From a virus: a stretch of DNA of 64,000 nucleotides. The notes beneath the pieces were generated by a model. The model saw only the letters and a list, made by a program, of their open reading frames with translations. It was not told where the DNA came from and made no database searches. The position numbers were made by a program, and so were the translations under genes. Of the stretch, positions 9,347 to 54,948 are shown in pieces (within the stretch, counting starts at the first letter, position 1; every line of letters begins with the position of its first letter). The stretch is taken from IMG/VR virus record IMGVR_UViG_3300045988_055634, positions 1 through 64,000 of that record. One strand, 5' to 3'.

Positions 9347-9706
9347 ATGGACAAGTATATTAATGGAAGTTTAGTAAAGAGAGTTTTAGTTTTTAAAACT
9401 AGAAAGCATCCCGATTGGGTACATTATGTGGACGATTACCGATTCTTGTTTTGGAAAATACATCGAGATTATTGGTATTATTGGGACCCATGTTTTGGAA
9501 CTTATACGGAAGAAAAAATGATTTCATCTTTAGAGAAGAGATATGCCTTCTACAAGGATGGAATAGTATATCAGAAACCTCATATCATTTTAGAGTTCTC
9601 TAAAAGACATGATGAATCTATCTATTTTGATAGTGACGAAGAAATGGAGGGATGGTTTGAATCCTTCATGGAAGAATTTGGAAAACCGTTTATTTACATA
9701 GACTAA
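9347..9706 (+). CDS. hypothetical protein
   Basis: 119 aa ORF. Confidence 0.45.
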   Translation: MDKYINGSLVKRVLVFKTRKHPDWVHYVDDYRFLFWKIHRDYWYYWDPCFGTYTEEKMISSLEKRYAFYKDGIVYQKPHIILEFSKRHDESIYFDSDEEMEGWFESFMEEFGKPFIYID

Positions 9707-9827
9707 TACCTTTATCCCAGTTTAGAGCTTAGCTCAAATAGTGAATAATAGTAGCTATTGGTTAAAACGAGGTGGAGTGCCAGACGAAAGACTGGAATTA
9801 ACATAGTTTAACTTTGAATCTCTGACT

Positions 9828-10172
9828 ATGCGGAGTATTATTATGGCAGAATTGATTTTCTTAGCTAATGGAAAATGCGACTTGAAGTTCCACGCTCATC
9901 CCAAGAATTTCAAAAGGGTTGAGAAGTTCAACTACAAAAAGAACTTTTTCAAGGTTTACGTTGACCGAAACGACAGCGTTTACGAGATAACTCGCTGCGA
10001 GGTGGTTACATGGAAAACCATAGAGAAAGGCAAGAAGAAATTTAACGTCCCTGACGAGGTGAAAGAAACTCGTGATGCTCACTTGTTTGACAAAATTAAG
10101 GGGAATCCGTTCAAAATCGCTATTACTAAGGTAGCTGGCGAGATTGATATGCAGGAGCTGTTATCTGAGTAA
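9828..10172 (+). CDS. hypothetical protein
   Basis: 114 aa ORF. Confidence 0.45.
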   Translation: MRSIIMAELIFLANGKCDLKFHAHPKNFKRVEKFNYKKNFFKVYVDRNDSVYEITRCEVVTWKTIEKGKKKFNVPDEVKETRDAHLFDKIKGNPFKIAITKVAGEIDMQELLSE

Positions 10173-10359: not shown

Positions 10360-10374
10360 CAAAATTTAAGTTTT

Positions 10375-10676
10375 ATGAAAATAAAGTGTACAGTATGTAA
10401 TAAAGAATTTTATTATGGAGACCATAACTCTCCAATGTTTATTGATGAGGTTTGGAACAAGATAATAAATTACTTTAAGCTAACCAATTTTGAAAAAGAA
10501 GCTGCAAAGAAATTCTCCTCTTATTACAAAGGGGAGGTAAAGATTATTATCCAGACCACCATGTGTTTATCTGTAGCGAATGTGCGGAGAAGGCTCTAGG
10601 TAGGGAAATAACTGATAAGGATATTAATGATTCATTATTTAATATCCCATTTAGAGAGAAGTACTTTAAATCTTAA
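10375..10676 (+). pseudogene. four-Cys zinc-ribbon protein gene interrupted by an apparent -1 frameshift at an A/G homopolymer
   Basis: Frame A (10375..10599) encodes CTVC...KGEVK and ends in a poor tail; the -1 frame, open 10494..10676, continues ...KDYYPDHHVFICSECAEKAL with a second CxxC; one extra A in the aaag run at ~10540 would fuse them. Confidence 0.45.
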
Positions 10677-10677
10677 T

Positions 10678-10762
10678 ATCCGTGTGGGTGAATGGTTTAG
10701 CCATCAGTCTGCAAAACTGAAAAGAGAAATCTTTAATGAGGGTTCGAATCCCTCCACGGATT
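10678..10762 (+). tRNA. type II (long extra arm) tRNA with GCA anticodon; formally Cys-decoding
   Basis: Acceptor atccgtg/cacggat 7/7, anticodon arm tcagt-ctgcaaa-actga, extra arm aaaga-gaaa-tcttt, T-arm gagggttcgaatccctc; D-stem weak. Confidence 0.6.
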
Positions 10763-10782
10763 CTAATTTTAAATTTAAAAAT

Positions 10783-11418
10783 ATGGCATATATTTATTGC
10801 ATTACAAATTTAATTAATAGCAAGCGATACGTAGGAAAAACTACTACTTCTATAGAAGAGCGCTGGAAGGAACATTGTTATGACTTTTAGAAAGAAAGAT
10901 GCAACAAAAGACCTTTATATGATGCCATGAATAAGTATGGTGTTGAGAACTTTATGATAGAGGAATTGGAATATGTAGATAGTAACTCTGAATTATCTGA
11001 AAGAGAAATCTATTGGATAAAAGAGCTAGGAACTTATGGTTCTAATGGGTACAATGCCTCTAAAGGAGGAGATGGCACTATTCTATACAATCATAGTGAA
11101 ATTGTAGAATTAGCTAGATTGGGATATACTAGTTCTTAGATACAAGAAAAAATAGGGTGCTGTAAAGACACTATTTACAAAGTTTTGAAGGCAAATAATA
11201 TAAAAATTAGAAAAAGTAACGCAAAGTTAATTGCTTAGTATGACTTAGCAGGTAATTTTATACAGGTATTCTTTGGTTCCAGAGAAGCTTAGGAATGGTT
11301 AATTAATAACGGAATTACTGACAATAAATCTGCATAGAGTCATATTATAGGATGCTGTAAGAATAAAACCAAATCATAGTATGGCTACATTTGGAAATAT
11401 CTTCCAGAGCCTATTTAA
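10783..11418 (+). mobile_element. free-standing GIY-YIG homing endonuclease gene whose frame contains 6 in-frame TAG codons
   Basis: N-terminal YIYCITNLINSKRYVGKT...EERWKEH motif; NKYG...YWIKELGTYGSNGYN; HTH-like IQEKIGCCKDTIYKVL; HEG C-terminal signature YDLAGNFIQVFFGSREA / SHIIGCCKNKTKS / YGYIWKY. All in one frame, interrupted only by TAG at 10888, 11137, 11236, 11290, 11335, 11377; ends TAA at 11416. Confidence 0.7.
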
Positions 11419-11564
11419 TCTTTAAATCACTGTTTCGACATTTTCAGTCTAAATGCCGTGTCTGGAGACGTTACCAACCAGTCGTGCTATACGGTTAGAA
11501 TAGTCCGTGCCTCACTGGTGATAGAGGCATCCCTGGGTAGCGGATGTAAAGTAGCTGCCAATAT

Positions 11565-11641
11565 CGTGGAGTAGAGAAGTGGTCATCTCGCTAGGCTCAT
11601 AACCTAGAAATCGTCATAAACGGTTCGAATCCTACCTCCGC
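11565..11641 (+). tRNA. degenerate tRNA-like element with CAT anticodon arm
   Basis: D-arm gaga-agtggtca-tctc, anticodon arm ctagg-ctcataa-cctag and T-loop ggttcgaatcc are present, but the T-stem and acceptor stem do not pair canonically. Confidence 0.3.
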
Positions 11642-11703
11642 AACGAAACTCCTTTTGTGGCTCTGAATTAGATTAATTATTAACAATTTTAAACTTTGAT
11701 GTT

Positions 11704-11885: not shown

Positions 11886-11970
11886 GTATGGTTAGCCAAG
11901 TGGCCGACGGCAGTGGGCTGTTAACCCACCGTGAGAAATCCCATCGCAGGTTCGAATCCTGCACCATACG
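11886..11970 (+). tRNA. tRNA with GTT (Asn) anticodon and an unusually long 16-nt variable arm
   Basis: Acceptor gtatggt/accatac 7/7, anticodon arm gtggg-ctgttaa-cccac, variable region cgtgagaaatcccatc, T-arm gcaggttcgaatcctgc; 85 nt. Confidence 0.6.
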
Positions 11971-12634: not shown

Positions 12635-12707
12635 GGGCCGTTAGCTCAAATGGCTAGAGCGCTGGTTTTGCACACCGGAAGATAGGGTTCGAGTCCCTGC
12701 GTGTCCA
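12635..12707 (+). tRNA. tRNA-Ala(TGC) with partly mismatched acceptor stem
   Basis: G1G2G3 with G3:U70, D-arm tagctcaaatggctagagc, anticodon arm ctggt-tttgcac-accgg, T-arm tagggttcgagtccctg; base of acceptor stem has 3 mismatches as read. Confidence 0.6.
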
Positions 12708-12917: not shown

Positions 12918-12989
12918 GCGGGATGATAGCAGAGGTAGCTAGTCAGGCTCATAACCTGAAGGTCGTCGGTTCGAATCCGAGTGGGGGAT
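12918..12989 (+). tRNA. tRNA-like element with CAT anticodon arm and no pairing acceptor stem
   Basis: D-arm tagc-agaggta-gcta, anticodon arm tcagg-ctcataa-cctga, T-arm (g)tcggttcgaatccga(g); flanking gcgggat/tggggga cannot pair. Confidence 0.4.
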
Positions 12990-15384: not shown

Positions 15385-15540
15385 AAGTATATTATATTTC
15401 AATTCCCACGGCATATGACGGGCAAGTCCCTATAAACTATGAGAAGATCTCTCCTCTTTTTCTAGAGAAGAAAGACGCTATAGAATGGGCGGTAACTCAA
15501 AATTACTGGGATATTAGATTAATAGAAGAAGAAGTTTTAT
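15381..15540 (+). CDS. small hypothetical protein (52 aa)
   Basis: ATGA overlap at both ends with flanking genes (MKVYYISIPTAYDGQ...). Confidence 0.3.
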
Positions 15541-16033
15541 GAAAAAGAAAGTTTTAATTATCCTTATGATTAGTATTGTATTCGGATTTGCAACTGGTTA
15601 TTCTTTGCATCATCTGATACATTTCAATCAGAAACAGGAGGAAATGGTATTGCTGCCAGAGCATCCATTCTACTTATTGGATGAAGTAAACGAAGAAGTA
15701 TTGTACAATACTTTGAAGCATTACGATTTTCCAAATCCAGCAATTATAACAGCTCAGGCTGTTCTGGAATCTGGCAATTTTAAATCGAAACTTTGTAAGG
15801 ACAATAACAATCTGTTCGGATTGTATAATTCCAGAACAATGTCTTACTTCAAGTTCGATAGTTGGATAAGCTGTGTGTTAGCTTATAAACAATTTATCCT
15901 TAGTAAGTATAACCCAGAAGAGGATTACTACAAATTCCTAGACAGAATTGGCTACGCTGAGGATTCCTTGTATGAAAGTAAAGTTAAGGAATTGGAATTA
16001 GATATACTTAATAAATATGGAAGCTCAAATTGA
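15539..16033 (+). CDS. peptidoglycan hydrolase with glucosaminidase domain, N-terminal membrane anchor
   Basis: ITAQAVLESGNFKSKLCKDNNNLFGLY matches the mannosyl-glycoprotein endo-beta-N-acetylglucosaminidase/FlgJ-type motif; N-terminal TM. Confidence 0.55.
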   Translation: MKKKVLIILMISIVFGFATGYSLHHLIHFNQKQEEMVLLPEHPFYLLDEVNEEVLYNTLKHYDFPNPAIITAQAVLESGNFKSKLCKDNNNLFGLYNSRTMSYFKFDSWISCVLAYKQFILSKYNPEEDYYKFLDRIGYAEDSLYESKVKELELDILNKYGSSN

Positions 16034-21285: not shown

Positions 21286-21628
21286 TTGTCCCCCATTGGA
21301 GGAACAATACAAAAGCATTATGGAGAACTTTGATTTTGATAAGGTTCTGGAGTATATGCAGTGGGACAAGAGTCATAGAGAATATGATGACGAGGGTCGC
21401 TGTATAGGCAAAAGTACATGGAAAATGTATGTAGGTCCGAACGAACACAGAGTTCCCACTCTTTACGAACTATCCAGAAATGCTAGCGTACTACTAAGAG
21501 AAGTAATGAAGCTGTACAATGACAACAAAAGTCCTTATCTTTCTATAGCTACTGGACCATTCAAGGTTATTTGCAGATATGGGATGCTGGAACTTATAGC
21601 TTGCCTAGAAACTTGGAGTTATGATTGA
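21249..21628 (+). CDS. hypothetical protein
   Basis: Track ORF 21230..21628; ATG at 21249 (MSKTKRTVL...) chosen as the likely start. Confidence 0.4.
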
Positions 21629-22016
21629 ATTTAATCAGATTTTTTGTGAGGATTTGAAAGATGATTTCGAGGAAGCTGGTAGGCATGAGAGAAATTTCGA
21701 GTTAGACGAGTTTATTCAGAAGGATTTAAGTAGAGCATTTGCGTTTGGTTATTGTCATTTAGACTGGATAAAGGAGAAAATGTGGTTTCCTGTTCCTATT
21801 AGGAAGGCTTTACGGCATTTAGGGGACGACCTAGAAGATTTTGCTCCTCAGCTTAAATGGCTTAACGAAAAATATGGTGCTATAGGAAAGAGAGTTAGAA
21901 TTGTTGATTATGCAAACTATATTTTAGATAATATATTTTGTGACAATCAAGACGATTTGCTAAAGATAGCAATATTACTCGGAACTAACATGAGAGTAAA
22001 TACTGCTGATGAGTAG
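21621..22016 (+). CDS. hypothetical protein
   Basis: 131 aa ORF. Confidence 0.4.
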   Translation: MIEFNQIFCEDLKDDFEEAGRHERNFELDEFIQKDLSRAFAFGYCHLDWIKEKMWFPVPIRKALRHLGDDLEDFAPQLKWLNEKYGAIGKRVRIVDYANYILDNIFCDNQDDLLKIAILLGTNMRVNTADE

Positions 22017-22452
22017 GCTAGAAGTGTTCACTGATGGAGCTTTTAGCTCATCTAGAGACACAGGAGGAGTAGGAGTTGTATTCGTAATTGATGGGGAAAA
22101 AGCCTATGAATTTAGTAAGATGATTCCTAATACTACTAATAATAAATGTGAGTTGTTAGCAGTAATTTATGCTCTAAATGCAGTAAGTCGTAAAATCGAA
22201 TCTCTGACTATTTACTCAGATTCTCAGTACGTCATAGGATGTGCTACTAAAGGATGGAAAAGAAAGAAGAATATAGAGTTATGGAATTTATACGACAAGG
22301 TCTTAAATAAGGCAAAGCAATTTTGTCCTAATATAGATTTTTGTTGGGTGAAAGGACATACTTCAAGTTCAGACTTCTTTTCTCAGATGAATAATCTCGC
22401 AGATAAATTAGCAGTTGAAGCAAGTCAGGAATATGAAACTAAGAAAGAATAA
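22009..22452 (+). CDS. rnhA: ribonuclease HI
   Basis: FTDGA...GGVGVV, ELLAVIYAL, YSDSQYV, WVKGHTSS...NLADKLA match the RNase H catalytic motifs. Confidence 0.8.
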   Translation: MSRLEVFTDGAFSSSRDTGGVGVVFVIDGEKAYEFSKMIPNTTNNKCELLAVIYALNAVSRKIESLTIYSDSQYVIGCATKGWKRKKNIELWNLYDKVLNKAKQFCPNIDFCWVKGHTSSSDFFSQMNNLADKLAVEASQEYETKKE

Positions 22453-53580: not shown

Positions 53581-54948
53581 ATGAAGTTATCAAAAAGTAA
53601 GAAAGCCAATGTCAATTATTTGGCAAAGATTGTAGAAATTAAGAATTTTAGACAACACAGTAACCCAGAAGTAACTAGACTTAAGTGCTGCACTATTGAT
53701 GGATTTAACATCATTACTGGCATTGATTCCCAGCCAGGATTGTATGTTTATTTCCCAACTGCTTGTTGCATTAATCCTGATTTTCTAAGGTATTGCAACT
53801 TGTACAGACATAAGGAGTTGAACAACGACCCAGAACAAACTGGTATGTTTGAAGACAATGGTAGGGTCAAAGCTATTAGACTTAAAAATGAACTGTCGGA
53901 AGGTTTTATTATGCCCATTATACAGTTCCAAAACTATATAATGTCCGTAACTAATAAAGAGATAGAAATTGAAGTAGGAACTGAATTTGATATTGTAGAA
54001 CATGAAGGCAAAGAATTTTGGATTAACAAGAAGTACATCCCTAAGAGACAGCAAGGACAAGGTGGCACACCACGTAACAACCAAACGAAGAAGGTCAAAG
54101 GAATCAGCAAGGTCATTGATGAACAATTTAGATTCCACTACGACACAACTCTTATTAAGAAATGTCCTAATGTAATTCATCCAAATGATTTAATCAGTAT
54201 TACTGAGAAAATTCACGGAACTTCTGGTATATCAGCTTATGTGCTTTGTAAACAAGACCTGAACTGGAAACAGAAAATCGCTAAATGGCTTACTGGAGAA
54301 GAGTTCAATAAGTATGACTATTTGTATGCTTCTAGAACGGTAATAAAGAATCAGTTCTATAATAAGAATGTTACTCCTGGATTCTACGGGTGTGACGTTT
54401 GGGCGGAAGCTGATAAAATAGTTAAACCTTGCTTGTCTAAAGGTATGACTGCATATTATGAAATCGTTGGTTTCTTACCTAATGGTGGCTATATCCAAAA
54501 GAATTATGACTATGGCTGTATACCTCCTAAAGAAGGAGAACAGTATACTCATGAAAAGCACTTTAAAGTGCGAATATATCGTGTAACATTAACTAATGTT
54601 GATGGTGTAGTTCACGAATTTAGTGCTAGGGAAGTTCAACAATGGTGTGCTAAGGTAGGTCTTATCCCAGTGGAAGAGTGGTATTATGGTACTGCCAATA
54701 GCTTATATCCAGAACTTAACGAAGCTGAGCACTGGAACGAAAATTTCATGGAGAAATTAGCTAACGACGCTAGATTCTATATGGAGCGAACTTCGCCATC
54801 TTGCGATAACAAAGTGCCTCATGAGGGAATAGTTATTAAGATTGAGAATATGAAATCTGAGGCATTTAAGCTTAAATGTTTTAAATTCCTAGATAAGGAA
54901 GGAAAGGAACTTGACAAAGGTGAAACTAATATTGAAGACGAAGCATGA
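53581..54948 (+). CDS. putative ATP-dependent RNA ligase (Rnl2-like nucleotidyltransferase)
   Basis: Motif-I-like EKIHGTSG (KxHG variant; I recall this from Rnl2-type RNA ligases); a second ligase in addition to the KxDG DNA ligase; 455 aa. Confidence 0.45.
   Translation: MKLSKSKKANVNYLAKIVEIKNFRQHSNPEVTRLKCCTIDGFNIITGIDSQPGLYVYFPTACCINPDFLRYCNLYRHKELNNDPEQTGMFEDNGRVKAIRLKNELSEGFIMPIIQFQNYIMSVTNKEIEIEVGTEFDIVEHEGKEFWINKKYIPKRQQGQGGTPRNNQTKKVKGISKVIDEQFRFHYDTTLIKKCPNVIHPNDLISITEKIHGTSGISAYVLCKQDLNWKQKIAKWLTGEEFNKYDYLYASRTVIKNQFYNKNVTPGFYGCDVWAEADKIVKPCLSKGMTAYYEIVGFLPNGGYIQKNYDYGCIPPKEGEQYTHEKHFKVRIYRVTLTNVDGVVHEFSAREVQQWCAKVGLIPVEEWYYGTANSLYPELNEAEHWNENFMEKLANDARFYMERTSPSCDNKVPHEGIVIKIENMKSEAFKLKCFKFLDKEGKELDKGETNIEDEA

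What the first reader, a model, noticed from the sequence alone, without database searches (positions are those of the whole stretch)
10678..10762. Type II (long extra arm) tRNA carrying a Cys GCA anticodon, directly upstream of the TAG-containing HEG
The element has a perfect 7-bp acceptor stem, a perfect 5-bp anticodon stem (tcagt/actga) with loop ctgcaaa (GCA), a 5-bp extra arm with GAAA tetraloop (aaaga-gaaa-tcttt) and a canonical T-arm. Long-extra-arm bacterial tRNAs are Ser/Leu/Tyr/Sec; the loop differs from a tRNA-Tyr loop (cuGUAaa) by a single U35 to C change. A canonical type I tRNA-Cys(GCA) with an identical anticodon loop sits at 8821-8894. This could be a Tyr-derived tRNA with a switched anticodon (possible mis-incorporation or recoding tool), a diverged second Cys isoacceptor, or a non-functional relic. 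The D-stem is weak.
Basis: seen in the sequence. Interest (0 to 1): 0.6.

Follow-up and report, generated by a model that had tools for sequence, protein, structure and literature searches.

The report
Phage cysteine tRNA with extra arm
This is an intact phage cysteine tRNA that carries the long extra arm normally reserved for serine, leucine and tyrosine tRNAs; it belongs to a widespread family of phage tRNAs for which I found no published description.

Summary
Window 10678-10762 (+) is a high-scoring tRNA (Rfam 56.3 bits; ARAGORN tRNA-Cys GCA) with a 7/5 cloverleaf, a 17-nt variable region (5-bp stem, GAAA loop, 3 unpaired nt) and U73.

It is not a one-off. A truncated scan of viral contigs found 58 distinct long-arm tRNA(GCA) genes. 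Of these, 55 have U73, the cysteine discriminator. All five helices covary, including the extra arm. About 15% of sampled phage tRNA-Cys genes are of this type. Cultured phages XacN1 and AH04 carry one, annotated simply as tRNA-Cys.

The Tyr-derived reading is not supported. With the extra arm removed, the body matches type I phage tRNA-Cys. The target's D-arm is identical to that of a type I tRNA-Cys from another phage. The phage's own tRNA-Tyr genes are only 49-52% identical to it.

In 31 sibling crAss-like phages the same slot holds this gene (14), an ordinary 75-nt tRNA-Cys (14) or nothing (3). It behaves as an exchangeable second cysteine isoacceptor, here lying in a cassette with a GIY-YIG homing endonuclease.

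Most likely it is charged by host CysRS and reads UGY. What the arm does is unknown. No paper describing it was found.

The parts
10678..10762 (+). Class II (long variable arm) tRNA-Cys(GCA), 85 nt, 7/5 acceptor/T configuration, no encoded CCA
   Evidence: ARAGORN; Rfam RF00005 56.3 bits; identical in 14 viral contigs
10678..10684 (+). Acceptor stem 5' strand ATCCGTG. It pairs with 10755-10761 (CACGGAT). The first pair is A1:U72
   Evidence: A1:U72 is rare in the family (G1:C72 in 32/37)
10687..10702 (+). D-arm GGT-GAATGGTTTA-GCC: 3-bp stem, G13.A22 mismatch, A15
   Evidence: the same D-arm occurs in type I tRNA-Cys of other phages (L378, alignment A2)
10704..10720 (+). Anticodon arm TCAGT-CTGCAAA-ACTGA; anticodon GCA at 10711-10713; A36-A37-A38
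10721..10737 (+). Variable arm: 5-bp stem AAAGA/TCTTT, GAAA tetraloop, 3 unpaired nt AAT (U48 opposite A15)
   Evidence: the extra-arm helix covaries across the family
10738..10754 (+). T-arm GAGGG-TTCGAAT-CCCTC
10762..10762 (+). Discriminator U73, the major cysteine identity determinant
   Evidence: 55/58 family members have U73; PMC9976931
8821..8894 (+). Type I tRNA-Cys(GCA), the phage's constant cysteine tRNA, present in all 31 sibling loci
10361..11456 (+). Variable cassette: Zn-ribbon ORF, class II tRNA-Cys and homing endonuclease. Sibling phages replace it with a 280-bp segment carrying a type I tRNA-Cys, or lack it
   Evidence: blastn breakpoints; slot census
10783..11418 (+). GIY-YIG/NUMOD1 homing endonuclease gene with 6 in-frame TAG codons, 20 nt downstream of the tRNA
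10375..10676 (+). Small zinc-ribbon ORF (needs a frameshift) whose stop codon ends 1 nt before the tRNA
11886..11970 (+). Second tRNA of the same kind: class II tRNA-Asn(GUU) with G73

Best explanation
The element is a working second cysteine tRNA of a large crAss-like gut phage. In effect it is an ordinary tRNA-Cys body with a hairpin inserted in the variable region.

Inferred pathway: it is co-transcribed with the surrounding tRNA array and small ORFs, and cut out by RNase P and 3' processing. Host CCA-adding enzyme supplies the CCA, because none is encoded. Host cysteinyl-tRNA synthetase charges it through U73 and the G34-C35-A36 anticodon. It then reads UGU and UGC like the type I tRNA-Cys at 8821.

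Shown: the tRNA fold; the identity nucleotides; family-wide conservation and covariation; interchangeability with type I tRNA-Cys.

Inferred: expression, cysteine charging, and tolerance of the extra arm by CysRS.

The purpose of the arm is not established. My preferred guess is that a differently shaped isoacceptor is harder for host tRNA-targeting nucleases to recognise. It may simply be a tolerated expansion. The gene travels as a cassette that homing-endonuclease-driven recombination shuffles between related phages.
For: (1) It is a strong, complete tRNA.

(3) Of 58 distinct long-arm tRNA(GCA) genes in viral contigs, 55 have U73. In the same loci Tyr and Leu have A73 and Ser mostly G73.

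(4) On 37 diverse members, 93% of cells are paired. Of 24 pairs, 22 show double changes. The covariation score is 0.87 against 0.21 in shuffles and 0.17 or less when slid. All 4 extra-arm pairs covary.

(5) With the variable region removed and the pattern positions masked, 158/169 family tests are closest to type I phage tRNA-Cys.

(6) The target's D-loop subfamily (GAAUGGUUUA, A15:U48, U73) contains both type I and long-arm members. These differ essentially by a hairpin insertion. L378 has an identical D-arm.

(7) In 31 sibling loci the slot holds the long-arm gene (14), a type I tRNA-Cys (14) or nothing (3), between flanks about 98% identical. The tRNA-Asn slot behaves the same way, with compensatory changes in its long-arm allele.

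(8) In Xanthomonas phage XacN1, reported to carry tRNAs for all 20 amino acids, the only tRNA-Cys in the 46.5 kb of tRNA-bearing terminal repeat examined is an 89-nt long-arm gene with U73 and encoded CCA (PMC5852040).

(9) The extra arm has 3 unpaired nt on its 3' side. In tRNA-Ser the modal number is 1.

(10) Long-arm versions of Asn, Asp, Val, Ile, Met, Lys and Gln in the same phages each keep the discriminator usual for their anticodon.
Against: No expression or aminoacylation data exist. A1:U72 is unusual: G1:C72 is the common first pair, and in another system A1:U72 needed a specialised CysRS (PMC5389517). The core pair is A15:U48, as in tRNA-Leu, not G15:G48 or G15:C48. U73 may not exclude SerRS in this host, because sibling phages carry a tRNA-Ser(UGA) allele with U73, and 8-10 of about 55-60 phage tRNA-Ser have U73. 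The gene is dispensable, being absent or replaced in 17 of 31 siblings. For the target itself the body profile test is ambiguous between type I Cys and Ser (7-11 bits each).
Confidence: 0.7

Rival explanations
1. Serine-accepting or dual Ser/Cys tRNA. SerRS recognises the long extra arm regardless of anticodon, so the tRNA would place Ser at some UGY codons (deliberate or tolerated mistranslation).
For: SerRS identity rests mainly on the long variable arm (PMC7373986; PMC7609411). Mukai et al. treat G73 or U73 as compatible with serylation. A tRNA-Ser(UGA) allele with U73 exists in sibling phages. The target's body scores about equally on Ser and type I Cys profiles. Its GAAA extra-arm loop is common in tRNA-Ser (34/115). 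The loop is one change from this phage's Ser(GCU) loop.
Against: The extra-arm geometry differs from tRNA-Ser: 3 unpaired nt on the 3' side against a mode of 1, and family stems of 3-4 bp against 4-7. The family has U73 in 55/58, where Ser has G73 in 48/62. The full CysRS determinant set is present. The gene swaps with an ordinary tRNA-Cys at the same slot. In XacN1 it is the only tRNA-Cys found in the tRNA-bearing repeat examined.
Confidence: 0.1
2. Non-translational anti-defence RNA. The tRNA would be a decoy or sponge for a host tRNA-targeting nuclease, or a substrate for some other enzyme, whether or not it is charged.
For: [quoted passage not shown] The phage encodes an RNA ligase (53581-54948). 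The gene is accessory and allelic, as expected for arms-race loci. It sits next to a GIY-YIG endonuclease; SegB, a GIY-YIG homing endonuclease of T-even phages, amplifies anti-defence tRNA genes.
Against: Strict retention of the isotype-matched discriminator and anticodon across 55/58 members points to aminoacylation and decoding, not shape alone. No tRNA-Cys-specific defence is known for the likely Bacteroidales host. This reading is compatible with the best explanation rather than exclusive of it.
Confidence: 0.1
3. tRNA-Tyr (or Leu) that switched its anticodon and is still charged with the original amino acid, used for mis-incorporation or recoding.
For: The anticodon loop is one change from CUGUAAA. 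The family's extra-arm geometry (short stem, 3 unpaired 3' nt) resembles tRNA-Tyr. The target's A15:U48 and D-loop GAAUGGUUUA resemble tRNA-Leu (GAAUGGUAGA). One bacterial example of a true Tyr body with A73 and CCA but GCA exists (L241).
Against: U73 is present instead of the A73 that tRNA-Tyr and tRNA-Leu carry (32/34 and 55/57 in phages). A Tyr profile gives no hit. Identity to this phage's own tRNA-Tyr genes is 49-52%. No GTA-anticodon version of this body exists in viral contigs. The D-arm is shared with type I tRNA-Cys. By established identity rules, C35 removes a main TyrRS contact (own knowledge, not tested here).
Confidence: 0.04
4. Decaying pseudogene carried along with the homing-endonuclease cassette.
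For: The region holds degenerate tRNA-like sequences (11565-11643, 12635-12707, 12926-12981). The neighbouring ORF is frameshifted. The gene is dispensable.
Against: All stems are perfect and the score is 56 bits. The only variant (L273) keeps GCA, U73 and the fold. L273 carries the tRNA without the endonuclease or the upstream ORF. Diverged homologues such as L372 and L381 keep the structure through compensatory changes.
Confidence: 0.05

Closest known systems
Canonical bacterial and phage type I tRNA-Cys(GCA)
   Same: GCA anticodon, loop CUGCAAA with A36-A37-A38, U73, 3-bp D-stem with an R13.A22 mismatch, and a 7/5 acceptor/T branch. The D-arm is identical to that of some type I phage tRNA-Cys (L378). 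The gene is interchangeable with a type I gene at the same locus.
   Different: The variable region is 17 nt and forms a 5-bp hairpin, instead of 4-7 nt. The first pair is A1:U72. The core pair is A15:U48.
Bacterial class II tRNAs (Ser, Leu, Tyr)
   Same: Long variable arm with stem and loop, 3-bp D-stem, enlarged D-loop, and a GNRA extra-arm loop as in Ser and Leu.
   Different: The anticodon and the discriminator belong to cysteine. The extra-arm geometry is unlike Ser. The body is closer to type I tRNA-Cys.
selC* tRNA-Cys and allo-tRNAs (Mukai et al. 2017, PMC5389517)
   Same: Long extra arm. selC* also has U73 and GCA and is a cysteine tRNA, which is a precedent that a CysRS can charge a long-arm tRNA.
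   Different: Those have an 8/4 or 9/3 acceptor/T branch, longer anticodon stems and Sec-like D-arms, and occur in particular anaerobic bacteria. Some need a dedicated CysRS*. The tRNA here has a plain 7/5 cloverleaf and is viral.
Nematode nev-tRNAs (PMC3333845)
   Same: Class II shape combined with an anticodon of a class I amino acid.
   Different: According to that paper's title and abstract, nev-tRNAs decode an alternative code for leucine: the anticodon is mismatched to the charged amino acid. Here the discriminator has changed together with the anticodon, so no recoding is expected.
Long-arm tRNA-Cys genes of cultured jumbo phages (XacN1 AP018399.1 45202-45290; Erwinia phage AH04 MZ501267.1 19192-19277)
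   Same: Same architecture (86-89 nt, GCA; U73 verified for XacN1), located in tRNA arrays.
   Different: About 60-65% identical or less. XacN1 encodes CCA. They are annotated only as 'tRNA-Cys', and the XacN1 paper makes no comment on the arm.
SegB-type GIY-YIG homing endonucleases in phage tRNA clusters (PMC13096335)
   Same: A free-standing GIY-YIG endonuclease lies beside tRNA genes, and the tRNA region is mosaic between related phages.
   Different: Membership of the window's enzyme in the SegB clade was not tested. Only the Pfam GIY-YIG domain and PHROG homing-endonuclease families were matched.

Membership tests
tRNA (Rfam RF00005) | Score above the gathering threshold, with a full cloverleaf and a 7-nt anticodon loop | tested here: met
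   56.3 bits against 29, model positions 1-71 of 71, loop CUGCAAA
tRNA-Cys (CysRS substrate) | Discriminator U73 | tested here: met
   T at 10762; 55/58 in the family
tRNA-Cys (CysRS substrate) | Anticodon G34 C35 A36 | tested here: met
   10711-10713
tRNA-Cys (CysRS substrate) | Core features: 3-bp D-stem with a purine13.A22 mismatch, and a G15:G48 Levitt pair (E. coli type) | tested here: inconclusive
   G13.A22 is present. The 15:48 pair is A:U, not G:G. G15:G48 is species-specific, and type I tRNA-Cys of the same D-loop subfamily also have A15:U48.
tRNA-Cys (CysRS substrate) | Variable region of 4-5 nt (type I) | tested here: not met
   17 nt with a 5-bp hairpin
tRNA-Cys (CysRS substrate) | Aminoacylation with cysteine | not testable with these tools
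   Needs a charging assay
Bacterial class II tRNA (Ser/Leu/Tyr) | Variable arm of more than 10 nt with stem-loop, and a 3-bp D-stem | tested here: met
Bacterial class II tRNA (Ser/Leu/Tyr) | Anticodon for Ser, Leu or Tyr, and discriminator G73 (Ser) or A73 (Leu, Tyr) | tested here: not met
   GCA and U73. Phage Ser, Leu and Tyr sets have G 48/62, A 55/57 and A 32/34.
tRNA-Tyr derivative | Body similarity to tRNA-Tyr once the anticodon is masked | tested here: not met
   No hit to the Tyr profile in 3 replicates; 49-52% identity to the phage's own tRNA-Tyr
selC* tRNA-Cys / allo-tRNA | 8/4 or 9/3 acceptor/T branch | tested here: not met
   7-bp acceptor and 5-bp T stem; tRNA RF00005 was the best match kept among overlapping clan families
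Suppressor or recoding tRNA | Anticodon complementary to a stop codon, or anticodon mismatched to the identity elements | tested here: not met
   GCA with U73 is a matched pair. The amber suppressor of this phage group is a different gene (L260, tRNA CUA).
Phage long-arm tRNA-Cys family (defined here) | 7/5 cloverleaf, GCA, U73, variable region 11-23 nt with hairpin, located in a phage tRNA array | tested here: met

The most novel reading that the evidence does not exclude
Phages repeatedly graft a class II-type extra arm onto ordinary tRNAs: Cys above all, but also Asn, Thr, Lys, Ile, Val, Met and others. They keep each tRNA's own identity elements. The altered shape would be an adaptation in the conflict over tRNAs. 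It might let phage isoacceptors escape host tRNA-cleaving defences, or let them be told apart from host tRNAs, while still being charged by the host synthetase. Class I and class II alleles would then be kept as exchangeable cassettes moved by homing endonucleases.
Probability: 0.25. Interest if true: 0.8.

Novelty: new variant of a known kind. Interest (0 to 1): 0.66.

Why it matters
Textbook tRNA classification reserves the long variable arm in bacteria for Ser, Leu, Tyr and Sec. Here a canonical 7/5 tRNA with full cysteine identity carries one, and this is common in phages: roughly 15% of a sample of phage tRNA-Cys genes. In at least one cultured phage it is the only tRNA-Cys found in its tRNA array.

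If CysRS does charge these tRNAs, they show that the class boundary is porous for a class I synthetase. They would also provide natural scaffolds for tRNA engineering, since the extra arm is a free handle.

The existence of type I and long-arm alleles at the same locus in near-identical phages gives a ready-made natural experiment on what the arm does, including a possible role in evading tRNA-targeting immunity. For annotation, these genes should not be flagged as pseudogenes or as isotype mismatches.

Tried and rejected
(1) I looked for a GTA (Tyr) or other anticodon on the same body by scanning with the anticodon as a wildcard. All 14 hits were GCA.

(2) A first isotype-profile test on whole sequences favoured Ser (48/58). 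I judged it biased by the extra arm and the small Cys training set. I repeated it with the arm removed, then with the pattern positions masked, equal training sizes and held-out controls. The result then favoured type I Cys.

(3) I tested whether extra arms are shared between isotypes within one phage, which would suggest a common protein partner. XacN1 Cys and Lys arms are nearly identical. Across 46 within-phage pairs, however, there was no excess similarity (p = 0.19), so I dropped the idea.

(4) I looked for tRNA-related enzymes next to the gene. Pfam found only Band 7, an AAA ATPase and a glucosaminidase.

(5) A bacterial genome scan showed that only about 16 of 120 pattern hits are long-arm tRNA(GCA) genes. 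Most sit in dense, phage-like tRNA arrays, and one is this same phage binned into a 'Clostridium' MAG.

(6) BLAST of family members against cultured phages mostly returned true tRNA-Ser genes, which was of little use.

(7) Eight literature searches found no description of a 7/5 long-arm tRNA-Cys.

(8) A link between this tRNA and the TAG codons of the neighbouring endonuclease is rejected. GCA cannot read TAG, and a separate tRNA(CUA) exists in a sibling phage.

Full report
OBSERVATION. ARAGORN calls an 86-nt tRNA-Cys(gca) at 10678-10763. Rfam's tRNA model scores it 56.3 bits (gathering score 29; E = 6e-10 for 22 kb) over the whole model, with the same 7-nt loop CUGCAAA.

Its layout is as follows:
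- acceptor stem ATCCGTG/CACGGAT, then U8 G9;
- D-arm GGU-GAAUGGUUUA-GCC (3 bp plus a G13.A22 mismatch), then A26;
- anticodon arm UCAGU-CUGCAAA-ACUGA;
- variable region AAAGA-GAAA-UCUUU followed by AAU (17 nt);
- T-arm GAGGG-UUCGAAU-CCCUC;
- discriminator U73.

No CCA is encoded. The single-sequence fold gives the same anticodon, extra and T hairpins. A type I tRNA-Cys with the same loop lies at 8821-8894. The 'weak D-stem' is the normal 3-bp form shared by class II tRNAs and by tRNA-Cys. The R13.A22 pair is common to both groups (PMC6511850).

IT IS A MEMBER OF A LARGE PHAGE FAMILY. A scan for the same body with any anticodon found 14 viral contigs of 45-188 kb. All carried the identical gene with GCA.

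Even so, it yielded 58 distinct 83-93-nt tRNA(GCA) genes. In 55 of the 58 the discriminator is U. Acceptor, anticodon and T stems are almost always perfect. The variable region is 13-22 nt, typically one unpaired nt, a 3-4-bp stem, a tetraloop and three unpaired nt.

On an alignment of 37 diverse members, 93% of cells are paired. Of 24 pairs, 22 show changes on both sides. The covariation score is 0.87, against 0.21 for shuffles and 0.17 or less for slid registers. All four scored extra-arm pairs covary.

A second scan allowing short or long variable regions read the same part of the database. It gave 92 new short-gap loci, 87 of them with a tRNA(GCA), against 26 long-gap loci. About 16 of those 26 are ARAGORN-confirmed long-arm genes. 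That is roughly 15% of sampled phage tRNA-Cys genes with this T-loop. It is a rough figure and was not de-replicated by lineage. Variable-region length is bimodal: 4-7 nt or 11-22 nt.

In bacterial and archaeal genomes only about 16 of 120 pattern hits are such tRNAs. Most of these lie in dense, phage-like tRNA arrays, and one is this very phage binned into a MAG.

Cultured phages have the gene too. Xanthomonas phage XacN1 has an 89-nt version with U73 and CCA. Erwinia phage AH04 has an 86-nt version. Both are annotated simply as 'tRNA-Cys'. In the 46.5 kb of XacN1's tRNA-bearing terminal repeat that I examined, it is the only tRNA-Cys.

WHERE IT COMES FROM. The Tyr-derived idea fails on several counts.
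- In the same phage loci, tRNA-Tyr has A73 (32/34), tRNA-Leu A73 (55/57) and tRNA-Ser mostly G73 (48/62).
- Tyr extra-arm loops are almost never GNRA (1/56), whereas 16/58 long-arm Cys and 34/115 Ser have GAAA.
- Profile HMMs were built from phage Tyr, Ser, Leu and type I Cys genes, with the variable region and discriminator removed, the anticodon loop and T-loop masked, equal training sizes and held-out controls. They assign 158 of 169 long-arm Cys tests to type I Cys, 10 to Ser and 1 to Tyr. The target itself scores 7-11 bits on both Cys and Ser and nothing on Tyr.
- Sibling phages carry two genuine tRNA-Tyr(GUA) genes just upstream of where the window starts. These are 49-52% identical to the target, the lowest of all within-genome comparisons. 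The highest, 61%, is to a type I tRNA-Cys allele.
- Scans for the target's D-loop joined to a GCA loop found a subfamily with GAAUGGUUUA, A15:U48 and U73. It contains both type I genes (variable region 4-5 nt) and long-arm genes (13-23 nt). In the alignment they differ essentially by a hairpin inserted in the variable region. L378, a type I gene, has a D-arm identical to the target's. L372 shares its anticodon stem and the extra-arm core GAGAAAUCU..AAU.

Long-arm forms also occur in the other, larger tRNA-Cys subfamily (GAGUGGUUGAA, G15:C48). The arm has therefore been gained or lost more than once.

POPULATION EVIDENCE. Thirty-one sibling loci were fetched through the neighbouring AAA ATPase (83-99% protein identity). 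All keep the first type I tRNA-Cys. The slot after tRNA-Gly(GCC) varies:
- the long-arm gene in 14 (13 identical, plus one variant, L273, with five changes that keep GCA, U73 and the fold);
- a different 75-76-nt type I tRNA-Cys in 14;
- nothing in 3.

Breakpoints lie at the edges of a cassette, window 10361-11456, comprising the zinc-ribbon ORF, the tRNA and the endonuclease. L273 has the tRNA without either neighbouring gene.

The tRNA-Asn slot behaves the same way. It holds either an 87-nt long-arm tRNA-Asn(GUU) with G73 (10 loci, three variants that differ by a compensatory C-G to U-A change) or a 73-nt type I gene (19 loci). The window combines the long-arm Cys with the long-arm Asn, a pairing not seen among the 31. 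The slots therefore assort independently.

Long and short alleles with the same anticodon and discriminator are thus exchangeable. That is what one expects of functional equivalents.

HOW IT MOST LIKELY WORKS. U73 and GCA are the major CysRS determinants (PMC9976931). By established identity rules (my own knowledge, not tested here), A73 is required by bacterial LeuRS and TyrRS, and U35 by TyrRS. Tyr or Leu charging is therefore unlikely.

SerRS is the serious alternative because it reads the extra arm. Against it stand the arm's geometry (three unpaired 3' nt against one in tRNA-Ser) and the family's near-universal U73. However, U73 tRNA-Ser alleles exist in these same phages, so some serylation cannot be excluded.

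That a class I synthetase such as CysRS approaches from the side away from the variable arm is textbook knowledge that I could not test here. The selC* tRNA-Cys species are a precedent for a cysteine tRNA with a long arm (PMC5389517). The same paper warns that A1:U72, which the target has, can be a poor first pair for ordinary CysRS. Within this phage group, tRNA-Cys genes carry G.U, C-G or A-U at that position.

Long-arm versions of other isotypes in the same phages each keep their usual discriminator: Asn G73; Asp G73; Val, Ile, Met A73; Lys mostly A73; Gln mostly G73.

I conclude, with confidence 0.7, that this is a cysteine-accepting, UGY-reading second isoacceptor. Cys codons make up 1.8% of long ORFs, with TGT 196 and TGC 88.

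CONTEXT. The DNA polymerase is 45-52% identical to those of crAss-like phages (IAS virus, PhiCrAssBcn of Bacteroides intestinalis). Sibling contigs run to about 185-193 kb. All genes are on one strand, and the code is standard overall.

The tRNA sits in an array of at least 15 tRNA genes interleaved with small ORFs. One nt separates it from the upstream stop codon, and 20 nt from the start of a GIY-YIG/NUMOD1 homing endonuclease. [quoted passage not shown] The phage also encodes an RNA ligase. These facts make an arms-race role for alternative tRNA alleles plausible, but nothing here tests it.

COMPARISON AND NOVELTY. The tRNA works like, and by its identity nucleotides is, a tRNA-Cys. It fails the type I definition only in the variable region. 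It has the class II shape but not the Ser, Leu or Tyr anticodon or discriminator. It is not a selC* or allo-tRNA (7/5, not 8/4 or 9/3), and it is not a suppressor.

Eight full-text searches and targeted reading of the most relevant papers found no description of a canonical 7/5 long-arm tRNA-Cys, in phages or elsewhere. The library lacks many subscription papers, so this is absence of evidence only. Such genes are already deposited and auto-annotated as tRNA-Cys. I therefore rate it a new variant of a known kind.

VERDICT. It would surprise tRNA specialists and is directly testable, but the mechanism by which the arm matters is still open.

Noticed in passing
window 11886-11970: A second long-arm tRNA with a class I anticodon: tRNA-Asn(GUU), G73, 56.0 bits. 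In sibling phages the slot holds either this 87-nt gene or a 73-nt type I tRNA-Asn. The 87-nt gene occurs as three variants that differ by a compensatory C-G to U-A change in the anticodon stem.
   Followed up: partly
window 10783-11418; also 9522-10172, 6451-7107, 21510-22034: The GIY-YIG/NUMOD1 homing endonuclease has 6 in-frame TAG codons and no other stop. Homology to homing-endonuclease families continues through them (phrog_314 matches residues 1-206). Three other ORFs also hold 4-6 in-frame TAGs, although the window as a whole uses the standard code.
   Followed up: partly
L260 307-377 and L272 1741-1811 (sibling phages, upstream of the window's start): One sibling carries a tRNA with anticodon CUA (amber suppressor). 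Another carries the same body with CUG (Gln). This suggests a Gln-inserting suppressor polymorphism that could explain the TAG-containing genes.
   Followed up: no
window 10375-10676: The small two-CxxC zinc-ribbon ORF just upstream of the tRNA is split between two reading frames (shift near 10520). This could be a sequencing error, a pseudogene or programmed frameshifting.
   Followed up: no
window 11565-11643: tRNA(CAU) with a C1xA72 mismatch and A73, the hallmark of bacterial initiator tRNA. It has a long variable region and a T-stem with only two pairs (39 bits). It is conserved in nearly all sibling phages.
   Followed up: no
window 12635-12707 and 12926-12981: Two degenerate tRNA-like sequences seen by Rfam but not by ARAGORN. 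One has anticodon UGC, G3:U70 and a poorly paired acceptor stem. The other is a CAU tRNA core with no acceptor stem.
   Followed up: no
L248 12984-13066 (also L249, L251, L257, L259, L264, L267, L276): In siblings that lack the long-arm tRNA-Cys, the slot begins with an 81-83-nt tRNA-like gene. Its anticodon stem (CCCAC/GUGGG) encloses a loop of about 15 nt. ARAGORN assigns it different anticodons in different strains.
   Followed up: no
sibling loci L248-L251, L264, L276 against others (tRNA-Ser UGA slot): The tRNA-Ser(UGA) slot has two very different alleles, a 93-nt gene with U73 and a 90-91-nt gene with G73. The host SerRS may therefore accept U73.
   Followed up: no
L369 (Xanthomonas phage XacN1 AP018399.1 20000-66500): In the XacN1 tRNA array examined, the only tRNA-Cys, tRNA-Asn and tRNA-Thr are long-arm types. 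tRNA-Lys(CUU) and tRNA-Gly(UCC) are long-arm too. All encode CCA and keep their usual discriminator. The Cys and Lys extra arms are nearly identical (AAGCGAAAGCTCATC and CAGCGAAAGCTCATC).
   Followed up: partly
window 1990-3948, 15539-16033, 53581-54948: A Band 7/SPFH protein and a glucosaminidase lie inside the tRNA array, and an RNA ligase lies further on. The XacN1 terminal repeat that carries its tRNA array also encodes a Band 7 protein, a cell-wall hydrolase and an RNA ligase.
   Followed up: no
L241 (bacterial genome contig) 3344-3428: A bacterial tRNA with a typical tRNA-Tyr body, A73 and encoded CCA, but anticodon GCA.
   Followed up: no
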